Part shown: positions 22,559 to 23,530 of the stretch, piece after piece | How the letters are laid out: every line of letters begins with the position of its first letter | Numbering within the stretch: the first letter of the stretch is position 1 | Notes under the pieces: generated by a model | Seen by the model: only the letters and a program-made list of their open reading frames with translations | Databases searched by the model: none | Told to the model about the DNA's origin: nothing | Translations under genes and position numbers: made by a program | Source of the DNA: a virus | Taxonomy: Duplodnaviria; Heunggongvirae; Uroviricota; Caudoviricetes | Direction: 5' to 3' (one strand) | Length of the DNA: 64,000 bases | Virus record (IMG/VR): IMGVR_UViG_2872147552_000001

Positions 22559-22640
22559 CTTATTGGCTTTATTGTGATGTGGCATAAAAGGGGAGCAAGC
22601 TAAACGTAAAGGTGCAAACTCTCTATTTCGGTCAACGAAA

Positions 22641-22664
22641 CACAAGGGCCATTTGGCCCTTGTC
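22641..22664 (-). terminator. terminator hairpin
   Basis: cacaagggccatttggcccttgtg right after the small ORF stop. Confidence 0.5.
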
Positions 22665-22665
22665 A

Positions 22666-22824
22666 TTAACACGTTGCTTTACGGACTAGCGGATAAGCGA
22701 AGTAGATCGCCAGACCAATGAGGACGCCATCAGAAATGACAGACATCATCTTTCCCGTAAAATCCACCAACACCGCCATCACCAGAAGAGCAATGACGGT
22801 CACAAGCCGGAATCTCTCAAGCAT
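22666..22824 (-). CDS. small two-TM membrane protein (52 aa), not in ORF track
   Basis: ATG overlaps the TAA of the TerB-like gene (TAATG); MLERFRLVTVIALLVMAVLVDFTGKMMSVISDGVLIGLAIYFAYPLVRKATC. Confidence 0.4.
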   Translation of the reverse strand: MLERFRLVTVIALLVMAVLVDFTGKMMSVISDGVLIGLAIYFAYPLVRKATC

Positions 22825-23249
22825 TAGAGATAAGCATCCAGTGACAACTGAAGCGCCTGTGCGATCTTTTTCAGTGCCAGCTCTTCTTGTTCGCCAATAC
22901 CGTCTTGGTCGGCAATATCAAGGCACAGACACAGTACATCTACTGCATCATTAGTCCCGGCCACATCAGCCAGCTCACGTAAAGCCTGGGCATTAGCGCG
23001 GCGCGGTGAGGCTTCGTATTGAGCACGGATATTGGCGCTCATTTGGGCAATCTCACCAGCAAACGGAGAAAACGCAGGCAGAGCTGCAATTGTTTTCTCA
23101 AGAATGGAAATTTCCTTTGCGTCGCATGTGCCATCGGCATAGGAGATCATGTACGCGCCCCACACGGTGGCTTCAACCGCATCACGGTTCTCCATTTTTT
23201 TGACTTCAATAACAGCTTTACGAGTTTTCTTTTTGAATAAACCTAACAT
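22824..23249 (-). CDS. TerB-like (tellurite-resistance TerB domain) protein
   Basis: Two helical repeats with D-G/D-x-D-x-x-E pattern (DGTCDAKEISILEK, DQDGIGEQEELALKK); AAGGAAA RBS. Confidence 0.5.
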   Translation of the reverse strand: MLGLFKKKTRKAVIEVKKMENRDAVEATVWGAYMISYADGTCDAKEISILEKTIAALPAFSPFAGEIAQMSANIRAQYEASPRRANAQALRELADVAGTNDAVDVLCLCLDIADQDGIGEQEELALKKIAQALQLSLDAYL

Positions 23250-23272
23250 GTGTTTTCCTTTTATTATTTGTC

Positions 23273-23287
23273 AAAACAAGTTGTTTT
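23273..23287 (-). promoter_or_regulatory. class A palindromic leader motif
   Basis: aaaacaagttgtttt. Confidence 0.45.
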
Positions 23288-23341
23288 CTAGTTTCATAAA
23301 TGCTTGCGCAAAGATGGTCAATGCATATGCACTAACAACCG

Positions 23342-23530
23342 TCAGAAATAACCAAGTACCGAACCAACTGGAAAAACAAAAATCCCAACTACACGAGCCA
23401 AGGTCATGCCAGCCTGAAACTGGAGATCACCAGAGCAAACAAGTTTTATAATGTTCGATACCCAACCGGCGGCCATGAGGGCCAGAATTGCCAGCCAAAT
23501 TTTTCCAAAGTGATTTGAAAACCAGTTCAT
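23342..23530 (-). CDS. small membrane protein (62 aa)
   Basis: Two hydrophobic helices; ATGA start/stop overlap with the upstream ORF. Confidence 0.4.
   Translation of the reverse strand: MNWFSNHFGKIWLAILALMAAGWVSNIIKLVCSGDLQFQAGMTLARVVGIFVFPVGSVLGYF

What the first reader, a model, noticed from the sequence alone, without database searches (positions are those of the whole stretch)
22641..23287. TerB-like gene translationally coupled to a 52-aa two-TM membrane protein
The 141-aa protein has the paired-helix D-G/D-x-D-x-x-E repeats typical of TerB domains. Its TAA stop overlaps the ATG (TAATG) of an unannotated 52-aa ORF with two hydrophobic helices, followed by a terminator. TerB domains occur in stress and phage-defence-associated operons, and small membrane effectors are common abortive-infection toxins, so this pair could be a compact defence or exclusion module.
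Basis: partly seen in the sequence, partly recalled or inferred. Interest (0 to 1): 0.6.

Follow-up and report, generated by a model that had tools for sequence, protein, structure and literature searches.

The report
Phage tciA–tciB (TerB plus membrane partner)
This is the known but functionally untested tciA–tciB gene pair of phage P1 and many other phages, here carried by an E. coli phage-plasmid: a TerB-fold cytoplasmic protein made together with a tiny membrane protein, more likely a helper for the phage's own lytic growth than an abortive-infection toxin.

Summary

The pair is the tciA-tciB unit first named in phage P1. The window is an SSU5-like E. coli phage-plasmid. In all 78 testable viral loci that hold tciB, tciA lies directly upstream, with a 1- or 4-base overlap in 76.

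The pair also occurs in strictly virulent phages and in lytic-cycle operons. It matches no PADLOC defence model, and intact tciB persists beside truncated tciA. A toxin/abortive-infection reading is therefore not favoured.

My best reading, which is an inference, is that TciB is the membrane partner of TciA. That is the role TerC is reported to play for TerB. On this reading the complex protects or conditions the inner membrane of the infected cell.

The pair is already known, its function is untested, and interest is modest.

The parts
23263..23290 (-). Promoter-like region upstream of tciA (TAGAAA-16-AATAAT). It overlaps the palindrome AAACAAnTTGTTT (core 23274-23286) that recurs upstream of about 12 genes in the window.
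   Evidence: Consensus scan. The motif gives 20 matches against 0.24 expected. Aligned sites show the palindrome 6-25 nt upstream of SD+ATG. It is conserved upstream of tciA in Klebsiella phage pJN2-26. Function as an operator or promoter is inferred, not shown.
23256..23260 (-). Shine-Dalgarno sequence AAGGA of tciA, 6 nt before the ATG.
   Evidence: Sequence. 17 of 19 distinct tciA leaders have a 4-5 nt match to AAGGAGGT.
22824..23249 (-). tciA: a 141-aa cytoplasmic TerB-family protein with a basic N-terminal tail (residues 1-22: 8 K/R, 2 D/E), an acidic body (8 K/R, 19 D/E) and two DG...E motifs.
22822..22826 (-). TAATG stop/start overlap: the tciA stop (TAA) shares its last A with the tciB ATG.
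   Evidence: Junctions in 78 related viral loci are -1 nt in 52, -4 nt in 24, and -109 nt in 2 (probably an artefact of taking the longest ORF start; not checked). SD-like matches before tciB are weaker than those before tciA.
22666..22824 (-). tciB: a 52-aa DUF3927 helical-hairpin inner-membrane protein. Conserved residues are R6, D21-F22-T23, S28, D32-G33 and P45.
   Evidence: Pfam PF13064 at 1.9e-12. PHROG 1470. Hydropathy. Alignments A2 and A6. dN/dS 0.30-0.43.
22634..22663 (-). Terminator-like hairpin (ACAAGGGCC AAAU GGCCCUUGU) plus a weak U-tract, 3 nt after the tciB stop.
   Evidence: Compensatory change in pJN2-26.

Best explanation
The locus is the tciA-tciB unit, known from phage P1, carried here by an SSU5-like E. 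coli phage-plasmid. It is a self-contained two-gene cassette: a palindrome-bearing promoter region, tciA, tciB and a hairpin terminator.

Shown here: TciA is a soluble TerB-fold protein with the family's two acidic DG...E motifs and a basic N-terminal tail. TciB is a 50-60 aa hydrophobic hairpin protein. The two genes are almost never separated, and the tciB start overlaps the tciA stop, so the two proteins are made together.

Inferred mechanism: TciB is the inner-membrane partner (anchor or receptor) of TciA. That is the role TerC is reported to play for TerB in ter operons. The TciA-TciB complex would act at the cytoplasmic face of the inner membrane of a cell in which the phage is growing lytically. 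There it would buffer or sense divalent cations or membrane stress. This would keep the infected cell energised and less vulnerable to outside membrane insults, such as pore-forming colicins, superinfecting phages or oxidants, until lysis.

On this reading it is an accessory host-conditioning function that is dispensable for plaque formation, not a toxin.
For: Identity of the pair:
- The window is 95-97% identical to phages PhiR41_1, CMS-2020a and Cyrano. Cyrano annotates the two genes as P1 TciA-like and TciB-like.
- TciA is 83% identical to P1 TciA. TciB matches P1 TciB at 39% identity.
- P1 has the same 1-nt overlap.

TerB family membership.

Linkage of the two genes:
- In 78 of 78 IMG/VR loci with upstream DNA, tciA lies directly upstream of tciB.
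- The same holds in 12 of 14 species-representative genomes.
- Of 16 diverse phage TerB-like genes, 10 have a DUF3927-like ORF within -8..+3 nt. Two have a different single-TM ORF coupled in the same way. Two sit in TerD-TerB-TerC-TerB operons without tciB. Two have no partner. In 14 of 16, therefore, a membrane protein is encoded beside the TerB-like gene, and tciB and terC do not co-occur.

Ter precedent from the literature:
- TerB was found as an interaction partner of TerC, and ter clusters give phage and colicin resistance (PMC11003894).
- TerB is membrane-associated (Millman et al. preprint 10.1101/2022.05.11.491447 citing Alekhina 2011).

Lytic-cycle setting:
- The pair lies in the P1 and P7 C1-controlled ban operon and between Q and the lysis genes in lambdoid phages.
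- It occurs in virulent phages.
- It is transcribed in P1vir infection (bioRxiv 10.64898/2025.12.28.696737).

Dispensability: a P1 CRISPRi screen scored tciA, tciB and tciC as nonessential (PMC10695390).
Against: No experiment on TciA or TciB exists in the literature I could search. The name 'tci' comes from homology only.

A physical TciA-TciB interaction is not shown. An AF2 model of a naturally fused TciA-TciB (P0094) was low-confidence in the TciB part (pLDDT 41-71) and says nothing either way.

If TciB is a hairpin with both ends in the cytoplasm, its most conserved residues (DFT, S, DG) would face the periplasm, leaving very little cytoplasmic surface for TciA.

Two phage TerB-like genes have no membrane neighbour.

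TciB shows no profile similarity to TerC, so 'TerC substitute' is an analogy only.

Adjacent genes share history, so tight linkage alone does not prove a complex.
Confidence: 0.4

Rival explanations
1. Defence or abortive-infection module. In a lysogen, TciA would sense infection at the membrane and release or activate TciB, a small membrane-disrupting effector that kills the cell or blocks the incoming phage.
For: TerB domains occur in validated defence systems (Shango, Bunzi, Dionysus). Dionysus pairs a TerB-like protein with a pore-forming membrane protein. The ter cluster gives a phage-inhibition phenotype. The tciABC region is variable among P1-like elements, as defence cargo often is (PMC9603915). 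The locus has its own promoter-like region and terminator.
Against: The pair is present in strictly virulent phages. It lies in C1-repressed or Q-dependent lytic operons, which are not known to be expressed in lysogens. No PADLOC hit at E<=1. Intact tciB persists beside truncated tciA in 10 loci. TciB has 52 aa, far smaller than the 4-TM pore-former of Dionysus.
Confidence: 0.12
2. Counter-defence. A phage-made TerB look-alike, held at the membrane by TciB, would compete with or poison host TerB-based membrane-surveillance systems (the ter cluster's phage inhibition, or Shango-, Bunzi- or Dionysus-like systems).
For: The pair is carried by many unrelated lytic and temperate phages and is expressed in the lytic cycle. 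TciA is a close relative of genuine ter-operon TerB (36% identity to the TerB of the Vibrio phage MS02 ter cluster). Phage copies of host immune components are a common anti-defence route (general knowledge).
Against: There is no evidence of any kind for an interaction with host systems. Most E. coli hosts lack a ter cluster (my knowledge, not tested). TciA does not match the Shango or Bunzi TerB models.
Confidence: 0.12
3. Regulator of lysis timing or of cell division. TciB would act as a holin- or antiholin-like membrane protein, or the pair would block septation. The latter is the 'i' in tci, and ter genes cause filamentation in Yersinia pestis.
For: In lambdoid phages the pair sits just upstream of the holin-endolysin cassette. 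TciB is similar in size and topology to small holins (my knowledge). A paper found (PMC4633105) links the ter operon to filamentous growth. A P1vir study groups tciA/B/C with cell-division control genes, by annotation only.
Against: Those lambdoid phages have their own annotated holin. In P1, in N4-like phages, in jumbo phages and in this window the pair is not next to lysis genes. Knock-down in P1 did not affect plating.
Confidence: 0.1
4. Genuine tellurite or metal resistance gene carried as an auxiliary metabolic gene, acting through TciA alone. TciB would be an unrelated neighbour.
For: Database names ('tellurite resistance TerB family protein'). Papers on Salmonella and Pseudomonas phages discuss it in these terms.
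Against: The window has no TerC or TerD (tblastn E>1). The plasmid constructs reported to confer tellurite resistance all carried several ter genes, the smallest being terBCDEF. The near-absolute tciA-tciB coupling argues that TciB is part of the function.
Confidence: 0.06

Closest known systems
Phage P1 tciA-tciB-tciC (P1_gp074-076; Lobocka et al. 2004 annotation, NC_005856)
   Same: Homologous proteins: TciA 83% identical, TciB 39% identical, both in the same PHROG and Pfam families. Same gene order and the same 1-nt stop/start overlap. Both lie on a phage-plasmid.
   Different: There is no tciC here; a terminator follows tciB at once. The pair is not embedded among tRNA genes or in a ban operon. 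It has its own palindrome-bearing upstream region instead. TciB has diverged far more than TciA.
TerB of terZABCDE(F) tellurite-resistance clusters (KP-TerB, PDB 2JXU) and its membrane partner TerC
   Same: Same family and fold, and the same two DG...E motifs. A membrane protein is encoded alongside. TerB is reported to bind TerC and to associate with the membrane.
   Different: The window has no TerC, TerD, TerZ or TerA. The membrane partner is a 52-aa hairpin with no detectable similarity to TerC. The locus is phage-borne and linked to the lytic cycle.
TerB-containing anti-phage systems: Shango (SngA), Bunzi (BnzA), Dionysus (DinB plus pore-former DinC)
   Same: A TerB-type domain combined with membrane components. 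These systems were proposed to carry out 'membrane surveillance'.
   Different: No PADLOC match to either protein. No ATPase, helicase, MAEBL or 4-TM pore-forming partners. Encoded by phages, including virulent ones, rather than in host defence islands.
Membrane-tethered TerB-like proteins of E. coli (DjlA N-terminal domain, YebE/DUF533). From my own knowledge; not tested here.
   Same: A TerB-like helical domain held at the inner membrane by transmembrane segments.
   Different: In those proteins the anchor and the TerB domain are one polypeptide. Here they would be two coupled gene products. All 16 representatives found with the 52-aa protein alone (phmmer, E<=1e-3) against 1.84 billion proteins were stand-alone proteins of 25-87 aa with no TerB fusion. 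The single fused protein found elsewhere (P0094, from the TciA search) looks like a frameshift.

Membership tests
TerB family (Pfam PF05099 / COG3793) | Sequence match above the curated Pfam threshold | tested here: met
   29.3 bits against a cutoff of 24.4, E 1.2e-6, residues 33-136. A profile of 11 homologues hits TerB 2JXU at E 5.7e-14 over residues 15-138 and 2OU3 at 6.6e-5.
TerB family (Pfam PF05099 / COG3793) | All-alpha TerB-clan fold | tested here: met
TerB family (Pfam PF05099 / COG3793) | Two conserved acidic (A/S)DG-x5-E motifs, one per half-domain | tested here: met
   D39, G40, E46, G117 and E122 are invariant and D116 is nearly invariant across 11 diverse phage homologues. They align with the corresponding motifs of 2JXU.
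ter tellurite-resistance determinant (terZABCDE) | Co-encoded TerC membrane protein and TerD-family proteins | tested here: not met
   tblastn of TerC and TerD from Vibrio phage MS02 against the whole window gave nothing better than E 1.9.
ter tellurite-resistance determinant (terZABCDE) | Confers tellurite, colicin or phage resistance | not testable with these tools
   This needs MIC and plating assays. No published test of tciA or tciB was found.
P1-type tciAB(C) module | TciA homologue followed by an overlapping DUF3927 (TciB) gene | tested here: met
   TAATG overlap. PF13064 at 1.9e-12 against a cutoff of 25 bits. PHROG 632 and PHROG 1470. The same layout is seen in P1, P7 and D6.
P1-type tciAB(C) module | Third small single-TM gene, tciC | tested here: not met
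   The terminator hairpin starts 3 nt after the tciB stop and no ORF follows. Among the loci I examined, tciC was seen only in P1 and P7.
Known TerB-containing defence systems (Shango, Bunzi) | Match to system HMMs and presence of partner genes (ATPase and helicase, etc.) | tested here: not met
   No PADLOC hit at E<=1 for TciA, TciB or three of the neighbouring ORFs; the fourth (the 189-aa ORF) gave only two weak, unrelated hits at E 0.016-0.022. The neighbours belong to phage families of unknown function.
Dionysus (DinA/DinB/DinC) | Three genes: a MAEBL+TM protein, a TerB-like protein and a 4-TM pore-forming protein | tested here: not met
   The architecture differs: two genes and a 52-aa hairpin. 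Sequence comparison with DinB was not possible because no sequence was held.
Toxin-antitoxin / abortive-infection pair | One product is toxic and the other is an obligatory antidote, so the toxin is never kept without the antitoxin | tested here: inconclusive
   Ten loci keep an intact tciB beside a 5'-truncated tciA, which argues against the model. However, expression of tciB in those loci is unknown, and toxicity itself cannot be tested here.
Holin / antiholin | Encoded in the lysis cassette next to the endolysin | tested here: not met
   None of the four ORFs scanned beside the pair (two upstream, one downstream, plus the 62-aa ORF) matches a lysis family; all fall in PHROG families of unknown function. 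Lambdoid carriers have a separate annotated holin.

The most novel reading that the evidence does not exclude
tciAB would be a widespread, phage-encoded minimal 'TerB plus membrane hairpin' device with a role in phage-phage or phage-host conflict. It would be either a new type of superinfection/colicin exclusion system acting during lytic growth, or a decoy that disarms host TerB-based membrane-surveillance immunity. In both cases TciB, TerC or other small membrane proteins would be interchangeable docking partners for TerB.
Probability: 0.15. Interest if true: 0.6.

Novelty: already known. Interest (0 to 1): 0.27.

Why it matters
The pair has been annotated since the P1 genome was published. 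Here it was found in 215 of 5,426 complete E. coli genomes for this variant alone, and IMG/VR holds 368 tciB relatives, yet nobody has tested what it does. TerB itself is one of the least understood parts of the ter stress cluster and of several new anti-phage systems. A two-gene, phage-borne TerB unit that is dispensable in P1 would be a simple system for asking what a TerB domain does at the membrane. For this window, though, the result is an ordinary accessory cassette of a known kind.

Tried and rejected
- C-terminal tail swap. tblastn stopped at residue 123 of TciA against P1, which suggested a swapped C-terminal tail co-varying with the TciB type. The full alignment shows that the tail aligns and is similar, so I dropped the idea.
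- TciB as a fragment or mimic of TerC (SxxDG versus the TerC S-x-DN motif). hhalign gave probability 0.14. Rejected.
- AF2 on the naturally fused TciA-TciB protein P0094 to look for docking. The TciB part had low confidence, no contact output is available, and the fusion is probably a frameshift from a single contig. Uninformative. A first MSA that included TciB rows was misaligned by MAFFT and was discarded.
- The word-indexed protein search with the 52-aa query found only near-identical proteins. The exhaustive search found 16 representatives and no fusions.
It was repeated with a tighter alignment.
- phmmer of TciA alone against PDB gave only weak EF-hand and centrin-like hits at E>0.3. I treated these as reflecting the acidic DxDG-like loops, not homology.
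- Rfam found nothing in the window apart from tRNAs.
- The P1 genome paper (PMC523184) is not held, so P1 statements rest on the GenBank notes.

Full report
**1. What is in the sequence**

Both ORFs lie on the minus strand. The 141-aa ORF runs 23249 to 22824 and the 52-aa ORF runs 22824 to 22666. The TAA stop of the first shares its last A with the ATG of the second, giving TAATG.

The first gene has a good Shine-Dalgarno sequence, AAGGA, 6 nt upstream of its ATG. The second has only a weak, distant GGA.

Three bases after the second stop there is a 9-bp hairpin with 6 G-C pairs. The 48-nt stretch 22625-22672 that contains it folds at -22 kcal/mol (z -5.7), but it is followed by a poor U-tract.

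The small protein has about 41 hydrophobic residues, broken by DFTGK and containing SDG, with basic residues at both ends. This is what a tight helical hairpin in the inner membrane would look like.

**2. What the two proteins are**

The two (A/S)DG...E acidic motifs are invariant or nearly so. Residues 1-22 are strongly basic and the rest of the protein is acidic.

The 52-aa protein is a member of Pfam DUF3927 (E 1.9e-12) and of PHROG 1470, 'TciB-like'.

Both genes are under purifying selection. dN/dS is 0.04-0.11 for the large gene and 0.30-0.43 for the small one. The small ORF is a real gene.

**3. Where the window comes from, and whether the pair is known**

The region is 95-97% identical to the roughly 108-kb Escherichia phages PhiR41_1, CMS-2020a and Cyrano. 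I recognise these as SSU5-like phage-plasmids from my own knowledge. Cyrano's annotation calls the two genes 'P1 TciA-like' and 'P1 TciB-like'.

In P1 itself, tciA, tciB and tciC are laid out with the same one-base overlaps. The window's TciA is 83% identical to P1 TciA, and its TciB is 39% identical to P1 TciB.

This variant is present in 215 of 5,426 complete E. coli genomes, and 215 of the 219 matching places are on plasmids; the listed records are about 100-120 kb. RefSeq annotates both genes there, as 'tellurite resistance TerB family protein' and 'DUF3927 family protein'. So the pair is already known and named, and the small ORF is not unannotated in public records.

[quoted passage not shown] It rests on homology only. 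I found no functional experiment. The relevant literature is as follows:
- A P1 CRISPRi screen scored all three genes as nonessential (PMC10695390).
- A P1vir transcriptome shows that they are expressed during lytic infection.
- A survey of P1-like elements found the region variable and often lost (PMC9603915).

**4. How tightly the two genes go together**

A scan of IMG/VR with a TciB alignment found 368 relatives. Of the 80 loci fetched, 78 had DNA upstream, and all 78 had a TerB-like gene directly upstream. The junction was -1 nt in 52 loci and -4 nt in 24; the remaining 2 showed -109 nt, probably an artefact of taking the longest ORF start (not checked).

In species-representative genomes, 12 of 14 TciB loci had tciA upstream. 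The two loci I examined in detail were prophages.

Going the other way, I looked at 16 diverse phage TerB-like genes:
- Ten are followed within -8 to +3 nt by a DUF3927-type ORF. One of these is an unannotated ORF in Pseudomonas phage Nican01, and one is a divergent copy in the Erwinia jumbo phage ChrisDB.
- Two (Pseudomonas phages AF and Zuri) are coupled to a different single-TM ORF.
- Two vibriophages carry the gene inside TerD-TerB-TerC-TerB operons with no tciB.
- Two have no membrane neighbour.

An exhaustive search of 1.84 billion representative proteins found only small stand-alone TciB relatives and no fusions. The single fused protein, P0094, looks like a frameshift.

**5. When it is expressed**

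In P1 and P7 the genes lie in the C1-controlled ban operon among tRNA genes. In lambdoid phages and prophages they lie between the Q antiterminator and the lysis cassette.

They also occur in phages with no lysogeny module, such as FSL SP-076, and in the Erwinia jumbo phage ChrisDB.

In this window the pair has its own upstream region carrying a palindrome, AAACAAnTTGTTT. The palindrome recurs upstream of about a dozen minus-strand genes, with 20 matches against 0.24 expected. The pair also has its own hairpin terminator. The palindrome, the TAATG overlap and the hairpin are all conserved in Klebsiella phage pJN2-26, the hairpin through a compensatory change. Whether the palindrome is a repressor operator is not known.

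**6. Interpretation**

The defence or abortive-infection reading is not favoured, for four reasons:
- The pair is carried by virulent phages.
- In temperate phages it sits in lytic-cycle operons.
- Neither protein matches any PADLOC model. I recall, without having checked here, that the library includes the TerB-containing systems Shango and Bunzi.
- Ten loci keep an intact tciB next to a truncated tciA.

My preferred explanation (confidence about 0.4) is that TciB is the membrane partner of TciA. This is analogous to TerC, which is reported to bind TerB (PMC11003894). TerB itself is reported to be membrane-associated. The supporting pattern is that phage TerB-like genes nearly always have a membrane protein next to them, and that tciB and terC are mutually exclusive.

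On this view the complex acts at the inner membrane of the lytically infected cell. It would maintain ion or membrane homeostasis, or exclude outside insults, echoing the colicin and phage resistance phenotypes of ter clusters.

All of this beyond the anatomy is inference. The rivals are Abi/TA defence, counter-defence by TerB mimicry, control of lysis timing or cell division, and true tellurite resistance. Each is listed with the experiment that would refute it.

**7. Verdict**

This is a correct observation of an already known, widely distributed phage accessory gene pair whose function has never been tested. It is not a new kind of system. The modest additions from this work are three: a quantified near-obligate tciA-tciB linkage, evidence that TerB-like phage genes pair with alternative membrane partners, and evidence against a toxin role. 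Interest is low to moderate.

Noticed in passing
window, 15 sites: 4486, 4971, 5721, 6624, 7109, 8303, 9743, 9794, 13732, 18005, 22545, 23274, 33489, 45219, 59891: The palindrome AAACAAnTTGTTT (often AAGAAAACAAnTTGTTT) gives 20 matches against 0.24 expected. Most sites lie 6-25 nt upstream of the SD+ATG of minus-strand genes, and many are preceded about 14 nt upstream by a GATAAT-like hexamer. It looks like a shared operator or promoter element of the early/replication gene block of this phage-plasmid. It is conserved in Klebsiella phage pJN2-26.
   Followed up: partly
window 23342-23530 (-): A 62-aa ORF with two hydrophobic segments (PHROG 6006, unknown function) lies directly upstream of tciA. 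It is conserved in the same position in pJN2-26. Some public gene calls fuse it to tciA (P0034).
   Followed up: no
IMG/VR loci L013-L092; L003, L005, L006, L007, L008, L011; window 62943-63596: tciAB lies within 1.5 kb of tRNA genes in 41 of 80 IMG/VR loci, and also in P1, P7, D6, JLK-2012, ChrisDB and Nican01 (often tRNA-Asn and tRNA-Thr upstream). In this window the only tRNA cluster (Ser, Thr, Tyr, Asn) is 40 kb away.
   Followed up: partly
L039-L046, L063 (IMG/VR) and L093 (Enterobacter sp.): tciA is truncated at its 5' end (39-74 codons left; in L093 a 46-codon remnant) and replaced upstream by unrelated sequence that I did not characterise. The overlapping tciB stays intact.
   Followed up: partly
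L108 2932-3153 (Pseudomonas phage AF); L113 2943-3146 (phage Zuri): The TerB-like gene is coupled to a different small protein (67-73 aa) with one N-terminal TM segment and the conserved motif C..YG.QTERET.YA.FVGCMV. In Zuri this ORF is mislabelled 'tellurite resistance protein' and the TerB gene is mislabelled 'dCTP deaminase'.
   Followed up: no
L007 2935-3117 (Pseudomonas phage Nican01): An unannotated 60-aa TciB-like ORF with a GTG start lies 2 nt after the stop of the annotated tellurite resistance gene.
   Followed up: partly
L009 and L110 (Vibrio phages MS02 and BUCT194): These N4-like vibriophages carry a ter-like cluster (TerD, TerD, a second TerB-like gene, TerC, TerB) rather than tciAB.
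   Followed up: no
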